NCBI GenBank assembly: GCA_965219345.1
Contig: OZ244732.1
Coordinates: 1,568,001 to 1,632,000, forward strand
Source of the DNA: Nitrosopumilus sp.
Lineage (GTDB): Archaea > Thermoproteota > Nitrososphaeria > Nitrososphaerales > Nitrosopumilaceae
Direction: 5' to 3'
DNA: 64,000 nt
Shown here: positions 2,492 through 42,512 of the stretch, piece after piece
Position numbering within the stretch: position 1 is the first letter of the stretch
Layout: every line of letters begins with the position of its first letter
Notes under the pieces: model-generated
The model's database searches: none
What the model was told of the DNA's origin: nothing
The model's input: only the letters and a program-made list of their open reading frames with translations
Position numbers and translations under genes: made by a program

Positions 2492-2535
2492 TTTACTATT
2501 ATCTATATCATGATAACTAAAGGTTTACTTTTTGT

Positions 2536-2585
2536 GGGACGGAAGTTAACGGGAGCTGATCCTTCTTGGGAAAGGCCGGGAGCTG
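2536..2585 (+). repeat. Left terminal inverted repeat
   Basis: GGGACGGAAGTTAACGGGAGCTGATCCTTCTTGGGAAAGGCCGGGAGCTG is the reverse complement of 7580-7631 apart from a 2 bp indel. Confidence 0.95.
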
Positions 2586-2643
2586 CCTACCTGGGCATGA
2601 AATGTGGTCAAGGGAGGAATCACAAAAGTTCTTTGAAATTGTT

Positions 2644-3216
2644 CTATCGGCGGCGGTGTCTCTTAGTTAGATTCCACTTGGCCGCCCTATATGCCAATAT
2701 TAGAAGAATGAATACTATAACGACCAAATCGTAAGCAGACACCCAAACATCCAACGTGATAATCTCGAATAGGCCAACATAATACAGAATCGTGACACTG
2801 AACACTACTCCAAACAGTTTCTTGGTGGTTTTTCCTCTGCGCTTGATCCACACTCGATCTCCTGCTGAATGCTCACGATACTTTACAGCATCCCACAGCA
2901 TGTATGTCAGAAATATTACGACTACTGCTATGGGAAAGTCACTGGCATGTTCAGTTTGGGAGATGCGAAGCAGGTAAAAGTACTCGAAGAGTATTACCAA
3001 GTCAATAACGAATCTTATGGCACCCGGATTGGTATCCTTGTGTGGCTTGATTGACACAGACCTAGAGTACCCTACCCATCCAGAAACGATTAGTATGTAT
3101 GCAAATGTCAATGTCATGACAGTCGTGTGGTTGTCCGGCTCAAACATGGACTGGATTGGAATCATAATACCCGAGGCCAGCATGAAACTCTGACCCAGTA
3201 CTATCGCGAACAGCAC
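2644..3216 (-). CDS. Multi-pass membrane protein of unknown function
   Basis: 190 aa with 5-6 hydrophobic segments. Confidence 0.65.
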   Translation of the reverse strand: MLFAIVLGQSFMLASGIMIPIQSMFEPDNHTTVMTLTFAYILIVSGWVGYSRSVSIKPHKDTNPGAIRFVIDLVILFEYFYLLRISQTEHASDFPIAVVVIFLTYMLWDAVKYREHSAGDRVWIKRRGKTTKKLFGVVFSVTILYYVGLFEIITLDVWVSAYDLVVIVFILLILAYRAAKWNLTKRHRRR

Positions 3217-3358
3217 GTGGATGGCTTGGGCATAACTGCGTGCGCTCAGGAGCCCCCATCTTGGGAGTTGTCATCTATTCATCCTCTGGTACTAAACTGT
3301 CTTTGGGCATCGAATCCAAATCTGTCACAAAATAATAGTTTGTATCATTCGGATCTAT

Positions 3359-3478
3359 CTATACTATGACTAGCGAATGGCACTTTGTACACTCGGCCTC
3401 AATCCAAGGATCATCTTCTTCGTAGAGTTTCTTCAAATCAGCCTCTTCGAGTATGTGTCCTCTGATTTTGCAGTATCT
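3359..3478 (-). pseudogene. 3' remnant of a small Cys-containing protein cut by IS481
   Basis: RYCKIRGHILEE...ECTKCHSLVIV abuts the IS481 left end. Confidence 0.4.
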
Positions 3479-4675
3479 TGTACAGAAAGTAGTATACCCC
3501 AGAGCAGAAAACAATCCGGGGGGACAGGCATGAGGATACTGGACAGAGTCGAAATGAAGGTGCGCGGGTGGCTCGGGCGCCGTGCTTCCAGATGGAGGCG
3601 TACCAGGGGTCGCCGCATCAGGGTCATGAGAAAACTTGACGAGTCGAAGGTAAAATGGATAGTCCGCCAGAAGCGGAGGACGGATGCGGGCAGGCCCACC
3701 ACCGCCCAAATTGCAGAAACGATGGGCATCTCCGCAGTATGGGTCAAGAAGCTGTGGGCCAGGTACAGGCATGCCGGACCGGACGGCATGGCATACCCTG
3801 CCAGGATGGGCAGGCCCGCAACGGCATGCACGGACGCAGGGAACATTCTGCTGTAATCGGTGCCCGCAATGCAACAAACGGCGGGCAGGCACCGTCAGGG
3901 CGGCCATGCGGCAGGAGGGAATCAATATACCGCACAGGACAGTACACAGCATATTGAGGGAGGACGGCAGCGCAGACAGGCATCCGAGGAAGAGCAGGAG
4001 GCGGAGATGGGTGCGCTACGAGCGCACGTACTCGAACTCCATGTGGCATACCGACTGGAAGCAGATACGCGGGGGCATGTACGACGGCAGGTGGTTCCTG
4101 TGCTACGAGGACGACGCATCAAGGTTCGTCACCGGGTATGGCGTGTTTGATAACGCCACCGCAGACAACGCGCTTGCCGTGCTGGAGCGGGCCATAGTGG
4201 ACCACGGCAGGCCGGCCTCGATAATGACTGACCACGGCAGCCAGTTCTATGCCAACAAGAAGGAGACCGCAAAGAGGGGCGAGAGTGATTTTGAGAAGAG
4301 GCTTGTCAGGCTAGGCATACGCCAGATACTTGCAGGAGTGGGGCACCCCCAGACAAACGGCAAGCTCGAGAGGCTTCACGGAGAGATACAGCGAAAACTG
4401 CACCATTTTGAGGGATCCTCGTACGGTACGGCAGTCAAGGCAGATCCCGACTGCCACGTGGGAGGGCCGTTCCACACCGGCGGTGCAAGGGATCCAATGG
4501 AACGATTCATTGACTGGTACAACAACTCGCGTGCCCACATGTCCCTTGACTGGGAAGACCAGGAGACTTCCGCCCAGGCGTTTGTACGCAAGATGGCCCA
4601 AAGGCAAAAGGGTAATAGATACAGAGACCGGTGAGGAGTATGATGTCGGTTAGAGGGTATACTACTTTCTGTACA
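3479..4675 (+). mobile_element. IS481 family element with frameshifted transposase
   Basis: 21 bp TIR TGTACAGAAAGTAGTATACCC / GGGTATACTACTTTCTGTACA (TGT...ACA ends); HTH in one frame, DDE core in another; no TSD. Confidence 0.9.
3627..4634 (+). pseudogene. IS481 transposase (rve DDE), frameshifted
   Basis: MRKLDESKVKWIV HTH part, then WHTDWK, EDDASR, MTDHGSQF, PQTNGKLER in a different frame. Confidence 0.85.
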
Positions 4676-4680
4676 CCACA

Positions 4681-5280
4681 ATGCATGACGCCTTTGGAAT
4701 AAAGGTAAACGTGAGGGGAACCCCAAACTCGTTTGATTCTGCAAAAGATCTGGCAAGGCGCAACAAATTCCAATTCGAGGCGTGGGCAGTCACGCTGATC
4801 CCCAATGTCCTGCCAAACACCAAGCAGGTAGGCGACAAGGGGGTTGATGGCAGAGGATACATCCATCTGGGCAAGAACAAAGACGGGAAGCGAATAGATG
4901 CCAAGATAATCGTGTCCGTGAAAGGAGGGGGCAACTTGACGCCGTCAATGGTGCGGGATTTGGCAGGCACCATGAGCAGTGAAAAGGCAAAGTTGGGCGT
5001 GTTCGTGTGCCTTAAGGAGCCCACGCGAAAGATGAGGGAGTCAGCGGCATCAGAAAAATTCTTCAGCACGCCTTTTGAGGAATCATACCCAAAATTGCAG
5101 ATATACACCACTTGCAGAATTTCTAATAAACTGCTGGTAGTTTTGGAATCATACCCAAAATTGCAGATATACACCATATCGGACTACAACGGGATCAAGC
5201 CAAACCTGCCGTCACTAGCAGACTTTGTCAAGGCTCCCCGGTCAGAGATGGATCCAAAAGGAATGCAAACCACGCTTTAG
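4681..5280 (+). pseudogene. C-terminal Mrr-like PD-(D/E)xK domain of a DNA methyltransferase/endonuclease fusion, 5'-truncated by IS481
   Basis: FQFEAWAV, DKGVDG, IIVSVKGG, MVRDLAGT, YPKLQI match this C-terminal module. Confidence 0.7.
5079..5176 (+). repeat. Perfect 32 bp direct repeat flanking a 34 bp insert
   Basis: GGAATCATACCCAAAATTGCAGATATACACCA at 5079-5110 and 5145-5176. Confidence 0.95.
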
Positions 5281-5368
5281 GGAGACAATCTGAGAAGATT
5301 TACCACCCGAAGATTACCCAGAACCTGTTAACGGTACCTTTATTTACACTCTCAATTCAGGCGACACA

Positions 5369-6154
5369 ATGACAACAAAAACTACCTCAAAAATGGTAAT
5401 CCTGTTAGGGATAACGGCACTGTTAATCGCCATGCCGTTCTCTAGTACAGCGTTGGCCCAAGCAAGCGGTTTGCAACACATGTACACCCCTGACATCATA
5501 AGTCATAGTAGCAATCAAGCCAATATATGGAATGCGCCGGAGCACGTGTACTCCCCTGACATCATAAGTCATATAGACGGACTGCTCGATGGCACCATCC
5601 CAACTGCCAAAGAGTTCATGATTGGGAATATGACGGTGTTGCTGACCACGAGTGTGGATACAATTCAACCCAATTCATACGTCATCAAGACTATCGTGAC
5701 GCATGACGGTGTCGAACAGCCGGATCTGACCCTCAAATACAAGGTAAAGATCTATGATAACGGTACGTACCATGTGGTCAACGCCGACTTTAACATGCTG
5801 GTGACAGACACCTACATTAGGGATGTAACCAAGTCAATACCCAAAGTCGTGTGGCTGCCTGGATGCGGTGCGACCGTGGTGTTGATCGGATATGGTTCTG
5901 GAAGCAACGTGGGTTGTTATGGTGCCGTCGATGTGGATGCCTCGGTATCGGCATCATCTGCATCCATAACATGGGACGCAGACAGCGTAGTCAACTGGCT
6001 GATATGGACATTCACATACGAACGTGGTTATGCCAACATAGTAGGTCAGGAATACGAGTTCAACATCAACAGCGGCTCGATAACCACAAGTGGGGACTAT
6101 TCGTCAACCGCTCAACATGCCATAGGCGGAGTCTTCTTCTACATCGTGGAGTAA
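5369..6154 (+). CDS. Secreted protein of unknown function
   Basis: Signal peptide ending ALA-Q; internal repeat HMYTPDIISH/HVYSPDIISH; beta-rich C-terminus. Confidence 0.7.
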   Translation: MTTKTTSKMVILLGITALLIAMPFSSTALAQASGLQHMYTPDIISHSSNQANIWNAPEHVYSPDIISHIDGLLDGTIPTAKEFMIGNMTVLLTTSVDTIQPNSYVIKTIVTHDGVEQPDLTLKYKVKIYDNGTYHVVNADFNMLVTDTYIRDVTKSIPKVVWLPGCGATVVLIGYGSGSNVGCYGAVDVDASVSASSASITWDADSVVNWLIWTFTYERGYANIVGQEYEFNINSGSITTSGDYSSTAQHAIGGVFFYIVE

Positions 6155-6155
6155 C

Positions 6156-6592
6156 ATGTCTCCCATCCCCTCTTTTTTATTTAAAATAAAATCATGCACG
6201 TGGTTTGCAATATCGGGTTTGGGAATAATCGGGGCGGCACACCAACTTGCCAACATGGTAATGCTGTTCGATTTTCTCGGTACCGTATGGTGTATTGGAC
6301 TGGCCGCAGTCGCCATGTTCGTTGTAATGGCAACGATCGGAGCGCTCAAGATACGCCACACTTTGGGGTGGTTCATGTGGGTGTATGTGCCATCCCTAAT
6401 GGCAGTCGGCGCCTTTCTCACAGGATGGCAGTGGAGTTTCATAGGGCCAGTCTGTTTCGGGGGATTCGGGAGTATGCAGGCTGGATTATTTTGATCTCTA
6501 GAAACTTTACAGATGATTGTCTTGGCGTGGCGCTCATAATAGGGGGCATATTTGTCCTCAAGCGGACGGGTCCGCGCGCAAAGGGAATCTAA
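6156..6592 (+). pseudogene. Small multi-TM membrane protein, probably frameshifted near 6470
   Basis: Hydrophobic ORF 6156-6494; a hydrophobic tail (WIILISRNFTDDCLGVALIIGGIFVLKR) continues in another frame to 6592. Confidence 0.5.
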
Positions 6593-6728
6593 AAGCAAAA
6601 CTGGGAATTGGCAAATAATACCCAAATTCAAGGGATCAGACATCAACACAATGGTTCAAGCCAAACAACCAAGAAAAGTATCCACACAAGATCCGATAAC
6701 AAAGCACTGGTTCGTGTGGGAATACTAA

Positions 6729-6926
6729 TTATCGTAGCTCTTCATCATCCACGTCTGGGACAACCATCCCGGTATCCCGTCGTTTTTTCAAATACTCGCA
6801 TGCAAACATCTGCATGTTTCCGCATTTGTGGCAAAGCTTCAATTCTGCCGGAAACGGAATCTCGGTCGTAAATTTGGTTTTGGGATCCGTGAGCATGTCG
6901 CTTAACGGATATTTGCAGATTGGCAC
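6729..6926 (-). CDS. Small Zn-ribbon-like protein
   Basis: (C)PIC ... CHKCG Cys pairs. Confidence 0.45.
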   Translation of the reverse strand: MPICKYPLSDMLTDPKTKFTTEIPFPAELKLCHKCGNMQMFACEYLKKRRDTGMVVPDVDDEELR

Positions 6927-7300
6927 AAATATTAGGACACGTCATCTGTCGCAGCGTCACATTTGCTCATTGTGATGTGACTATGCCATGTCTTATTAAA
7001 CCGATCCCCGCCTCGAATCGCCTAAGTCCACATAACTAAAGTATATAATCCCCCGGCGATCAATCTGGAGAAGATCCGCCCAGCTCCCGATATTCCCAGG
7101 AAGAACCTTCTTGTCGGCAGGTGAGAACGACAAGTGGAAGACGATAATCCAGAACGTCGGCCTGCACGAGAACTAGGCATAACCCAAAGATCAAAATACC
7201 CCTTATTCCATACCAAGGCATGGTTTGTAAAGACTGCAAGGACTGGAAAGAGACCTTGGAGTGGCTAAACAGCAACATTCCCAAAGAATCTGAGTAGCTA

Positions 7301-7528
7301 CTACGTCATCTTGTCCAGTTTGTCATTGTCTACATAGTCTGGATCTCCCGGCTTGTTGAAGGCGTTTAGGTATGATTGAACCATGACCATGAGGTGTTCT
7401 GTCATGGTTTCAAGTGTTTTTGCCTTGTACCTCTTTTCTAATGCCCTGACGAAATCTTTCGAGAATATCTCGCTTGACACTAGAAACTCACGGATCATCT
7501 TGTCGCGCGGCGTGTATGCGGCTGACAC
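7301..7528 (-). CDS. Hypothetical protein next to the right TIR
   Basis: 75 aa ORF with protein-like composition. Confidence 0.45.
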   Translation of the reverse strand: MSAAYTPRDKMIREFLVSSEIFSKDFVRALEKRYKAKTLETMTEHLMVMVQSYLNAFNKPGDPDYVDNDKLDKMT

Positions 7529-7579
7529 GGGATCAATCCTAATGGAGATCTCTATAAACCGATCCTTGGCCGACCGCCC

Positions 7580-7631
7580 CAGCTCCCGGCCTTTCCCAAG
7601 AAGGATCAGCTCCCGTTAACTTCCCAGTCCC
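7580..7631 (-). repeat. Right terminal inverted repeat
   Basis: CAGCTCCCGGCCTTTCCCAAGAAGGATCAGCTCCCGTTAACTTCCCAGTCCC. Confidence 0.95.
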
Positions 7632-7653
7632 CTTTTTGTTTTAAGGCTAAATA

Positions 7654-42010: not shown

Positions 42011-42512
42011 GGTTCTGTTGGGTTATGGGGATATAGAATGAAATATGAATTTTCTCCTAATTAAAAAATCATACCTACACAGAATCCTTGCTTAAACTTG
42101 CATTCTGAATTATTGTCTTCCATTTGTTTAATCCATCAACCTCAATCATAGAGGCCTGTGCTGGAGTTTGACCCTTCAATGCTCCGTGCTTTTTTGTAAA
42201 ATTATAGTAGACTCTCATGCTATCCGAAATACCAGTATCCATCTTTTTGAGACCTCTGAATACCTTTTCCCTGTCCCTGATTTCACCGTTTAATCTTTCC
42301 ATCTTGTTGTTGTTCATGTCACCTTGCAGATGAATATGCCTAATGTGGTTGGTATCACTGCCAAAGATTTTCCTGCTTGACTTCATGTAAGCTTGCAAAC
42401 CATCTGTTATGAAATTGCGTGGATTCTTGCCAGCTTGTAATTTTGTTAATCTCAATAGGCTGTCTGCATTATGATGAAATTTGTTATCTGCAATCTCTTT
42501 TTTATCTCCCAA
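42011..42512 (-). mobile_element. IS6 family remnant (3' part and TIR)
   Basis: GGTTCTGTTG end; ITDGLQAY, NNKMERLN, YYNF, TPAQ. Confidence 0.8.

What the first reader, a model, noticed from the sequence alone, without database searches (positions are those of the whole stretch)
2528..7639. Orphan 5.1 kb TIR element with 8 bp TSD and no matching transposase
Seen: ~50 bp inverted repeats starting GGGAC, an exact CTTTTTGT duplication on both sides, and GC-rich cargo (membrane protein, Mrr-like domain, secreted protein, Zn-finger ORFs) placed between two host genes. The only transposase inside belongs to a nested IS481 with different ends. Each TIR holds GGGAGCTG twice at 27 bp spacing, like iterated binding sites. 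Known: casposons occur in Nitrosopumilus and have TIRs, TSDs and similar cargo. Inference: this is a non-autonomous or deleted casposon-like element, or an undescribed cargo transposon mobilised in trans. No cas1 or polB is visible.
Basis: partly seen in the sequence, partly recalled or inferred. Interest (0 to 1): 0.75.

Follow-up and report, generated by a model that had tools for sequence, protein, structure and literature searches.

The report
Decayed IS6-type cargo transposon, transposase lost
The 5.1 kb insertion is real, but it is not an orphan or a casposon: it is a worn-down member of an IS6-like family of gene-carrying transposons found in marine ammonia-oxidising archaea, and it has lost all but the last 22 codons of its own transposase gene.

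Summary
Window 2536-7631 is a 5,096 bp GC-rich insertion. It has a perfect 45-nt inverted repeat (50/52-nt TIRs) and an exact 8-bp duplication, and the site is empty in five relatives.

The interpretation needs changing. The ends are IS6-family-type ends. A matrix built only from resident IS6-like ends ranks the right end 23rd of 3.83 million genome positions. The same roughly 52-nt TIR, with two GGGAGCTG motifs, occurs in 11 of 400 other Nitrosopumilaceae genomes.

Two relatives are complete and autonomous: G322 (3,694 bp) and G371 (10,157 bp). Each has its own 8-bp duplication and a 379-382 aa zinc-finger DDE_Tnp_IS240 (IS6-like) transposase next to one TIR, plus cargo.

Window 7108-7176 still encodes the last 22 residues and stop of such a transposase. 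It starts directly at an internal IS6-type end, so the element's own transposase gene was destroyed.

The interior is a mosaic:
- a nested IS481-like IS without a duplication
- an Mrr-like gene with its own IS6 end
- genes for membrane and secreted proteins

The casposon reading is rejected. The genome's only full Cas1 is a Cas4-Cas1 fusion beside a 164-repeat CRISPR array.

In passing: CRISPR-unit-like repeat-insert-repeat scars occur in the element and across the genome. The scan has seen such scars on other DNA.

The parts
2528..2535 (.). Left copy of the 8-bp target-site duplication (CTTTTTGT)
   Evidence: A single copy is present at the empty site of G359.
2536..2585 (+). Left TIR (50 nt), 'type A' IS6-like end. 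It has two GGGAGCTG motifs at 2551-2558 and 2578-2585, and a 2-nt deletion near the tip.
   Evidence: Family alignment of 24 ends.
2644..3216 (-). 190-aa multi-pass membrane protein of unknown family
   Evidence: No Pfam, NCBIfam or PADLOC hit. It has 12 homologues at 40-87% identity in metagenomes. A 42% homologue sits next to a type-A end in G080 as well.
3469..4685 (+). Nested IS481-like insertion sequence, 58% GC. The rve transposase ORF is at 3684-4634, with the HTH part upstream in another frame. It has 31-nt IRs and no target duplication.
   Evidence: Resident relatives are only about 68% identical in DNA and 54-59% in protein.
4681..5280 (+). Mrr_cat / NA-iREase1 restriction-endonuclease-like ORF (199 aa). 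It is 80% identical in protein to the passenger of an IS6 transposon in G359. It contains a 66-bp repeat-insert-repeat unit at 5079-5176.
5281..5325 (-). Internal IS6-type transposon end ('end B'), terminus at 5325, 45 nt after the Mrr stop codon
   Evidence: Matrix score 17.7 bits. Sequence read. In run X5 a contig matches up to 5325 and then runs on into unlike DNA (table 7).
5369..6154 (+). 261-aa secreted, all-beta protein of unknown family. It contains a second 66-bp repeat-insert-repeat unit at 5477-5573.
   Evidence: Four homologues at 59-77% identity. The 22-aa insert is absent from all 4. The AlphaFold2 model has mean pLDDT 43.8.
6156..6494 (+). 112-aa predicted membrane protein, no family
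6729..6926 (-). 65-aa Cys-rich (zinc-ribbon-like) ORF. The only family hit is weak.
   Evidence: PF08421, E 0.0069, below the cut-off.
7059..7107 (-). Internal IS6-type end ('end C'), terminus at 7107. It starts with the GGTTCT tip, holds one copy of the TGGGAA-N-CGGGAGCTG motif, and has the inner GGATCTTCTCCAGATTGA block of resident IS6 ends.
7108..7176 (+). 3' remnant of an IS6-like transposase gene: the last 22 codons and the stop, containing KWKTIIQN
   Evidence: tblastn E 0.002 with the G359 transposase, and the stop lies at the homologous position. Searches give the same small hit with other IS6-like transposases.
7301..7528 (-). 75-aa ORF of unknown function between the transposase remnant and the right TIR
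   Evidence: no significant family.
7580..7631 (-). Right TIR (52 nt), type-A IS6-like end
   Evidence: Matrix score 22.3 bits, rank 23 of 3,825,518 positions.
7632..7639 (.). Right copy of the 8-bp target-site duplication

Best explanation
Window 2536-7631 is a degraded, now non-autonomous member of a subfamily of IS6-like (DDE_Tnp_IS240) cargo transposons of Nitrosopumilaceae. I call their ends 'type A': about 52-nt TIRs that begin GG and hold two GGGAGCTG-type motifs about 27 nt apart.

Shown:
- It inserted 44 bp upstream of the start codon of an ArgZ-like gene and duplicated 8 bp of target, the hallmark of IS6-type DDE transposition.
- Complete relatives encode a 379-382 aa zinc-finger IS6-like transposase beside one TIR.
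- This copy keeps only the last 22 codons of that gene, and these begin exactly at the tip of another IS6-type end.

Inferred:
- The transposase gene was destroyed by insertions and deletions of other IS6-type transposons.
- A second rearrangement, beside the nested IS481-like IS (which has no duplication), removed the methylase partner of the Mrr-like gene.
- The two motifs in each TIR are binding sites of the cognate transposase.
- Movement follows the IS6 route: replicative cointegrate, then resolution by homologous recombination.

When did the decay happen? The nested pieces are not copies of this genome's own elements, and the whole unit is 47% GC in a 36% GC genome. So I think it more likely (about 55:45) that the mosaic was assembled in an earlier host and arrived here without a working transposase, moved in trans like a mobile insertion cassette. 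The alternative is that it decayed in place.

Today it can move only if an IS6-like transposase that recognises type-A ends is supplied. None was found in this genome.
For: 1. Real insertion with an 8-bp duplication and an empty site.
2. Resident IS6-like transposons have 49-53-nt TIRs starting GGTTCTG and 7-8-bp duplications. A 26-nt matrix built from five resident IR pairs, without this element, scores the right end at 22.3 bits. That is rank 23 of 3,825,518 positions, and all higher hits are IS6-type ends.
3. The same TIR type was found in 11 of 400 other family genomes at E <= 0.01. G080 has 10 ends, G371 6, G353 3, G322 2 and G097 2.
4. Complete elements exist:
   - G322, L100 542-4235: 3,694 bp, duplication CCTAAAAC.
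   - G371, L084 1626-11782: 10,157 bp, duplication TCACGCAA.
   Each has a transposase next to a TIR. Those transposases score 56.9 and 52 bits on Pfam PF13610 (cut-off 27), and IS6 is their best NCBIfam family.
5. A transposase 3' remnant lies at 7108-7176, abutting internal end C.
6. The Mrr-like ORF is 80% identical to the passenger of a G359 IS6 transposon and is followed by its own IS6 end B. In run X5 a contig diverges exactly at 5325.
7. A homologue of the 190-aa membrane protein lies next to a type-A end in G080, a different genus.
8. In the alignment of 24 ends, both motif copies change together. Both read GGTAGA in G371, and both read GGGTGC in some G080 and G371 ends.
Against: - The NCBIfam IS6 model is the best hit but stays below its curated cut-off: 100.9-116.5 bits against 125.
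- The N-terminal zinc module also matches IS1/IS1595-type models.
- The TIRs (about 52 nt) and element sizes (3.7-10 kb) are well outside the usual IS6 range of about 800 bp with short IRs (PMC7986276, passages read).
- There is only one copy in this genome, so mobility of the decayed form is not shown.
- No type-A transposase exists in this genome. The closest is 55% identical and sits in an element with GGTTCTG-type ends.
- The left TIR has a 2-nt deletion at the tip, which may cripple it.
- The transposase remnant is short (22 codons, E 0.002).
- The strict 41-nt TIR core was found in 0 of 400 family genomes.
- A degenerate pattern gave only chance hits in the species-representative genome collection and in JGI metagenomes.
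Confidence: 0.85

Rival explanations
1. The family is the same, but the history differs. An intact, autonomous type-A transposon inserted here by its own transposase. All the decay then happened in place: the end B and end C events, the IS481-like insertion and the deletions. No trans-mobilisation ever occurred.
For: - The element is single-copy.
- A transposase remnant is present.
- The genome is rich in IS6-like and IS481-like elements that could have hit it.
- The 2-nt deletion in the left tip fits post-insertion decay.
Against: - The nested IS is only about 68% identical in DNA to the six resident copies.
- The Mrr module and ends B and C have no identical source in this genome.
- The 45-nt TIR cores and the duplication are still perfect, while the interior would have had to suffer at least three large events.
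- The two 66-bp repeat-insert-repeat units inside differ in geometry from the 70-76-bp class that dominates the rest of the genome.
Confidence: 0.38
2. The element belongs to a separate, unnamed DDE family related to both IS6 and IS1/IS1595, rather than to IS6 proper. Its 8-bp duplication and GG tips would be shared ancestral traits.
For: - NCBIfam IS6 scores are under the cut-off.
- There are secondary hits to the IS1 transposase model (E 2e-10 to 1.9e-14) and to the IS1/IS1595 zinc domain.
- The TIRs are long and bipartite, and cargo is carried routinely, which is unlike classical IS6.
Against: - Pfam DDE_Tnp_IS240 is clearly above its cut-off.
- IS6 is the best NCBIfam family by 60 bits or more.
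- Zinc-finger IS6 transposases are already accepted in the family as clade h (PMC7986276).
- The end sequences resemble the GGTTCTG... ends of known IS6 members. That resemblance is my recollection of IS257-type ends and was not tested.
Confidence: 0.1
3. The element is a deleted casposon, or a casposon-like element mobilised by a Cas1-type integrase.
For: TIRs plus a duplication, in a genus known to host casposons. The genome does encode Cas1.
Against: - The duplication is 8 bp, not 13 bp.
- There is no Cas1 or PolB remnant in the element.
- The Cas1 is a Cas4-Cas1 fusion beside a 164-repeat CRISPR array, and the second hit is a 72-residue fragment.
- 0 of 163 spacers match the element.
- The TIRs belong to elements that encode DDE transposases.
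Confidence: 0.01

Closest known systems
IS6 (IS6/IS26) family insertion sequences, including zinc-finger clade h, the single passenger-carrying member ISDsp3, and the two known IS6 MITEs (Varani et al. 2021, PMC7986276; passages read)
   Same: - 8-bp target duplication.
- Ends that start GG.
- A DDE_Tnp_IS240-type transposase in the autonomous relatives, with an N-terminal zinc-finger extension as in clade h.
- Deletion derivatives without a transposase exist.
   Different: - TIRs are about 52 nt with two iterated motifs, not about 14-40 nt.
- Elements are 3.7-10 kb and routinely carry cargo (methylases, nucleases, surface proteins), not about 0.8 kb.
- The hosts are Nitrosopumilaceae; the review's archaeal clades are Euryarchaeota and Crenarchaeota.
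- The NCBIfam IS6 score is below the cut-off.
- This copy has no transposase.
Mobile insertion cassettes (MIC231 of Bacillus cereus, moved in trans by the IS231A transposase), as defined in PMC3913671 (passages read)
   Same: A cassette bracketed by IS-type inverted repeats, without its own transposase, carrying passenger genes and flanked by a target duplication.
   Different: - The ends are IS6-like, not IS4-family ends.
- The host is an archaeon.
- The cassette is a decayed mosaic with a transposase remnant, not a clean cassette.
- Trans-mobilisation is inferred, not shown.
IS26-type pseudo-compound transposons and translocatable units (PMC7986276)
   Same: Several IS6-type ends lie in the same orientation (termini at 5325, 7107 and 7631) with cargo segments between them. 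This resembles arrays built by repeated IS6 events.
   Different: Only 45-52-nt ends remain, not whole directly repeated IS copies. The mobile unit is bounded by inverted ends and has one 8-bp duplication.
Family 1 casposons of Nitrosopumilus (PMC8464041, passages read; PMC6563490, passages read)
   Same: A TIR-bounded, duplication-flanked insertion in the same genus.
   Different: - There is no casposase and no PolB.
- The duplication is 8 bp, not 13 bp.
- The insertion site is not a casposon target motif.
- Relatives encode a DDE transposase.

Membership tests
IS6 family | 8-bp direct target duplication | tested here: met
   CTTTTTGT lies on both sides, with a single copy at the empty site. 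Relatives have CCTAAAAC (G322) and TCACGCAA (G371).
IS6 family | Terminal inverted repeats of the family type (GG tip, conserved core) | tested here: met
   A matrix from five resident IS6-like IR pairs ranks the right end 23rd of 3,825,518 positions. The G259 variant also carries the inner GGATCTTCTC block of resident ends.
IS6 family | DDE transposase of the IS6/IS240 type encoded between the ends | tested here: not met
   This copy holds only a 22-codon 3' remnant at 7108-7176. The autonomous relatives do meet it: PF13610 at 56.9 and 52 bits against 27.
IS6 family | Transposase reaches NCBI's curated IS6 equivalog score (NF033587, 125 bits) | tested here: not met
   The scores are 111.7 (G322), 100.9 (G371), 116.5 (G359) and 97.1 (G000 resident). 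IS6 is the best family in each case but stays below the cut-off.
IS6 family | Compact size (about 0.7-0.9 kb, up to 1.8 kb) and short IRs | tested here: not met
   The TIRs are 50-52 nt and the elements measure 3.7, 5.1 and 10.2 kb, against the ranges quoted in PMC7986276.
IS6 family | Transposition through a cointegrate | not testable with these tools
   This needs a mating-out or in vitro assay.
Mobile insertion cassette (MIC) | Bracketed by IS-type IRs, no transposase gene, target duplication present | tested here: met
   The only intact-looking transposase belongs to the unrelated nested IS481-like IS.
Mobile insertion cassette (MIC) | Mobilised in trans by the cognate IS transposase | not testable with these tools
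   No second copy exists in the genome, and no type-A transposase is present in the genome.
Casposon | Encodes a Cas1-type casposase (usually with PolB) | tested here: not met
   No Cas1 or PolB domain occurs in any element ORF. The genome's Cas1 is CRISPR-linked. The PF03175 search of the genome found nothing, but its control also rang nowhere, so that search is uninformative.
Casposon | Long target duplication (13 bp in the Nitrosopumilus family 1 element) | tested here: not met
   The duplication is 8 bp, against 13 bp in PMC8464041.
IS481 family (nested IS only) | rve-type DDE transposase with an HTH, terminal IRs and a target duplication | tested here: inconclusive
   NF033577 is the best family at 140.6 bits, below its cut-off of 224. 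The IRs are 31 nt at 87%. No duplication flanks it.

The most novel reading that the evidence does not exclude
Type-A elements may be an undescribed subfamily of archaeal IS6-like 'transporter' transposons. Their roughly 52-nt TIRs hold two co-varying transposase-binding motifs. They ferry restriction-modification or defence genes and surface or membrane protein genes between genera of marine ammonia-oxidising archaea. This copy would then be a natural archaeal mobile insertion cassette that was moved in trans after losing its transposase. A 2019 survey stated that passenger-carrying transposons had not been detected in archaea, thaumarchaea included (PMC6563490, passage read).
Probability: 0.45. 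Interest if true: 0.5.

Novelty: new variant of a known kind. Interest (0 to 1): 0.38.

Why it matters
It turns an apparent orphan element into a member of a traceable family. Autonomous copies, deletion derivatives and solo ends of that family occur in at least six genomes of two genera.

The family shows that small, streamlined marine Nitrosopumilaceae genomes exchange methylase and nuclease modules and membrane or secreted protein genes on IS6-like transposons. This route of gene flow was not described for these archaea in the papers I could search.

The conserved TIR, with its two co-varying motifs, gives a directly testable model of how these transposases recognise their ends.

Tried and rejected
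**TIR searches that found nothing useful**
- The strict 41-nt TIR core with up to 3 mismatches gave 0 of 400 family genomes.
- A degenerate TIR pattern gave 3 hits in genome contigs and 6 in metagenome contigs. None resembled the TIR outside the pattern, so they are chance hits.
- A 17-nt core gave 0 hits in viral contigs.
- The relaxed BLAST search and the motif search then succeeded. In one search, single motif hits are near the level of the reversed control (7 control hits). Only the tandem pair in G259 was taken as real.

**Context of the cargo homologues**
- The secreted protein has only distant relatives (24-30% identity): in 3 of 150 genus genomes and 4 of 400 class genomes. None was found in viral contigs.

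**Function of the cargo**
- The AlphaFold2 model of the secreted protein has mean pLDDT 43.8, so I ran no fold search.
- The Atlas search for the membrane protein gave only unnamed clusters, at low recognition.
- PADLOC gave one weak hit, for the Mrr-like ORF only.

**Leads that proved empty**
- A 13-nt match of the left TIR near C1:1718464 turned out to lie inside the right end of an ordinary IS6-like copy, in the wrong orientation.
- The apparent joint from 7078 back to 5298 in run X5 is best read as cross-alignment between the similar inner blocks of ends B and C. I do not read it as a circle.
- In G259 the type-A end is solo, with no partner in the genome.
- CRISPR spacers: 0 of 163 match the element.
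- The 34-nt and 35-nt inserts of the two 66-bp units have no exact match in viral contigs or elsewhere in the genome.
- I tried to find empty sites for two genome-wide repeat-insert-repeat units, but the surrounding DNA is not conserved in the five relatives searched.

**Other limits**
- Sequencing runs: no RNA holder is listed.
- The PolB (PF03175) search is uninformative because its control rang in no genome.
- Supplementary tables of PMC6563490, which list the ISs of each genome, were not opened. They may already list IS6-like elements in Nitrosopumilus.

Full report
**1.

The window carries a perfect 45-nt inverted repeat, 2541-2585 against 7580-7624. With the GGGAC tips it becomes a 50-nt left TIR and a 52-nt right TIR. 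The left tip lacks two bases.

CTTTTTGT flanks both ends. The segment is 49.9% GC, or 47.3% without the nested IS, in a 36.0% GC genome.

It is a true insertion. With the region as query, the two flanks abut or overlap in 5 of 12 same-genus genomes (G359, G365, G254, G183, G361). The G359 sequence shows one copy of the 8-mer, with one substitution, between the same flanks.

The insertion lies 44 bp upstream of the start codon of a 409-aa ArgZ-like/LOR-SDH gene and 22 bp downstream of a 118-aa gene. Contigs from public runs of at least three studies carry the same insertion at 100% identity.

**2. The ends are IS6-type ends**

This genome has many genes for 376-380 aa transposases with a zinc-binding N-terminus and a DDE_Tnp_IS240 domain. 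Eight loci give a single tblastn match over 340 or more residues. Pfam scores are 43.8-50.7 bits against a cut-off of 27. NCBIfam IS6 is the best family, at 97-116 bits against a cut-off of 125.

Their elements have these features:
- 49-53-nt TIRs that start GGTTCTG
- 7-8-bp duplications
- sizes of 2.4-4.0 kb
- DNA methylase plus nuclease passengers
- one 636-bp derivative without a transposase

I built a 26-nt weight matrix from five such IR pairs, without this element. It scores the right end at 22.3 bits, rank 23 of 3,825,518 positions, and every higher hit is an IS6-type end. The left end fails this ungapped test only because of its 2-nt deletion.

**3. The same TIR type has complete, autonomous relatives**

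The strict TIR core was absent from 400 family genomes, and degenerate patterns found only chance hits in two large collections. A relaxed BLAST search found related ends in 11 of 400 family genomes. G080, from another genus, has 10 of them. G371 has 6, G353 has 3, G322 has 2 and G097 has 2. G259 has a solo end, and this genome has one more solo end at C1:1006780.

Two elements are complete:

| Genome | Locus | Length | Duplication | Transposase | Cargo |
|---|---|---|---|---|---|
| G322 | L100 542-4235 | 3,694 bp | CCTAAAAC | 379 aa | EcoRI-methylase fragment; GmrSD_N/HNH protein |
| G371 | L084 1626-11782 | 10,157 bp | TCACGCAA | 382 aa | N6_N4 methylase; large GC-rich surface proteins |

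The two transposases are 78% identical to each other. They score 56.9 and 52 bits on PF13610, and IS6 is their best NCBIfam family.

G080 also holds a roughly 1.0-kb derivative with a truncated transposase.

In an alignment of 24 ends from 6 genomes, the roughly 52-nt TIR and both GGGAGCTG-type motifs are conserved. The two motif copies change together within a lineage. That is what one expects of two binding sites for one co-evolving protein.

**4. The inside of the element is a wreck of IS6-type transposons**

Two more IS6-type ends lie inside, in the same orientation as the right TIR.
- **End B**, terminus at 5325, lies 45 nt after the stop of the Mrr-like ORF. Its matrix score is 17.7 bits.
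- **End C**, terminus at 7107, has the GGTTCT tip, one copy of the type-A motif, and the inner block of resident ends.

Both are shown.

The Mrr-like ORF is 80% identical to the passenger of a G359 IS6 transposon, where a methylase gene precedes it. Here the homology begins exactly at the right IR of the nested IS481-like IS, and that IS has no target duplication. An adjacent deletion is therefore likely. In run X5 a contig follows the Mrr module up to 5325 and then diverges, which marks 5325 as a real element boundary elsewhere.

Directly after end C, the + strand reads the last 22 residues and the stop of an IS6-like transposase, including KWKTIIQN (the same spot was hit). So the element once had its own transposase gene near the right TIR, as its relatives do, and lost nearly all of it.

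The 190-aa membrane protein next to the left TIR has a 42% homologue next to a type-A end in G080. It may be an old companion of this TIR type.

The other genes have no assignable function:
- a 261-aa secreted beta-rich protein
- a 112-aa membrane protein
- a 65-aa Cys-rich ORF
- a 75-aa ORF

**5. Mechanism**

*Shown:* insertion with an 8-bp duplication; IS6-type ends; loss of the transposase.

*Inferred:* movement by an IS6-like DDE transposase that binds the two motifs in each TIR, through a cointegrate and its resolution. That is the accepted route for IS6 members (PMC7986276, passages read).

Whether the decayed unit moved in trans or decayed after arrival is open. I lean towards decay before arrival, about 55:45, for four reasons:
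- The nested IS is only about 68% identical to the six resident copies.
- No source of ends B and C or of the Mrr module exists in this genome.
- The whole unit has a foreign composition.
- The TIR cores and the duplication are still perfect.

No type-A transposase is present in this genome. The closest is 55% identical and sits in an element with GGTTCTG-type ends.

**6. The casposon reading is rejected**

- No element ORF has a Cas1 or PolB domain.
- The duplication is 8 bp. The Nitrosopumilus family 1 casposon makes 13 bp (PMC8464041, passages read).
- The genome's Cas1 is a 556-aa Cas4-Cas1 fusion at C1:1639587-1641257, next to an array of 164 repeats of 36 nt. The only other hit is a 72-residue fragment.
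- None of the 163 spacers matches the element.

**7. Comparison with what is known**

The element works like a mobile insertion cassette: IS ends, no transposase, passenger genes and a duplication (definition in PMC3913671, passages read). It belongs to, or sits next to, the IS6 family.

It departs from the family description in three ways (PMC7986276):
- TIR length and structure
- element size
- routine cargo, where the review lists only one passenger-carrying IS6 member and two MITEs

The NCBIfam score below the cut-off leaves room for a sister family. A 2019 survey of thaumarchaeal mobile elements states that passenger-carrying transposons had not been detected in archaea (PMC6563490, passages read). 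My three literature searches and the passages read in a 2026 archaeal IS survey (PMC13343696) turned up no description of these elements. I could not query ISfinder or see supplementary tables.

**8. Verdict**

This is a real but ordinary kind of thing: a decayed, non-autonomous IS6-like cargo transposon. It belongs to a subfamily that looks undescribed and is of moderate interest.

**In passing**

The element holds two 66-bp repeat-insert-repeat units, one of 32+34+32 nt and one of 31+35+31 nt. Homologues lack both.

The genome holds about 28 isolated units with a 33-38-nt repeat and a 70-76-nt period. That is the geometry of its own CRISPR array. At least eight of the inserts are exact copies of other places in the genome.

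The scan has reported such scars on other DNA. One of those reports was later checked and its bold reading was priced at 35 in 100.

Noticed in passing
window 5079-5176 and 5477-5573: Two in-frame 66-bp repeat-insert-repeat units lie inside the element: 32+34+32 nt in the Mrr-like ORF, and 31+35+31 nt (repeats 94% alike) in the secreted-protein ORF. The G359 Mrr homologue lacks the first. All 4 of 4 homologues of the secreted protein lack the second. The inserts have no match elsewhere in the genome or in viral contigs. Their geometry differs from this genome's CRISPR unit (36-nt repeat, 35-40-nt spacer).
   Followed up: partly
genome G000 contig C1, outside the window (e.g. C1:243305, 321414, 404166, 650323, 915773, 919312, 1135073, 1510756, 1519410): About 28 isolated repeat-insert-repeat units have a 33-38-nt exact duplication (mode 36) and a 70-76-nt period. 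Only 9 units have periods of 57-68 and only 3 have periods of 77-95. This matches the genome's own CRISPR array geometry. At least 8 inserts are perfect 32-39-nt copies of other loci in the same genome. It looks like ectopic spacer integration. Earlier scan reports on other genomes describe the same thing, and one was later priced at modest odds. I could not find empty sites for two units in relatives.
   Followed up: partly
G000 C1:1639587-1653821 (about 7.6 kb beyond the window's end): A Cas4-Cas1 fusion gene (556 aa) is followed by a CRISPR array of 164 repeats of 36 nt, with spacers mostly 36-40 nt. None of the 163 spacers matches the element.
   Followed up: partly
L022 1873-3397 (G291 C1:2144872-2146396): Relative G291 carries a different insertion of about 1.5 kb at the same intergenic spot. 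It holds a 145-aa TIR-domain (Toll/interleukin-receptor type) protein and a transposase remnant, and is flanked by an imperfect direct repeat of about 16 bp of the target. G229 also has about 1.6 kb between the flanks, which I did not examine.
   Followed up: partly
L006 8781-14314 (G000 C1:1006780-1012313): A solo type-A end sits at the edge of an island. In that island, a 2.8-kb IS6-like transposon (transposase, N6_N4 methylase, HNH protein; perfect 49-nt TIRs; 8-bp duplication) sits inside the transposase gene of an IS4-like element. A truncated IS6-like transposase follows.
   Followed up: partly
G000 C1:905045-905680: A 636-bp transposase-less derivative of an IS6-like transposon, with both TIRs and a remnant of an Mrr-like C-terminus.
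   Followed up: no
window 42011 and 42087-42497 (G000 C1:1610011; 1610087-1610497): Another IS6-type end (matrix score 27.5 bits) and a 140-residue fragment of an IS6-like transposase lie later in the window.
   Followed up: no
L020 and L021 (G359 C1:1864000-1876000 and 1809000-1821000): G359 holds an inverted duplication of at least 11.5 kb at 99.97% identity. It includes an IS6-methylase-Mrr transposon and a tandem-repeat region.
   Followed up: no
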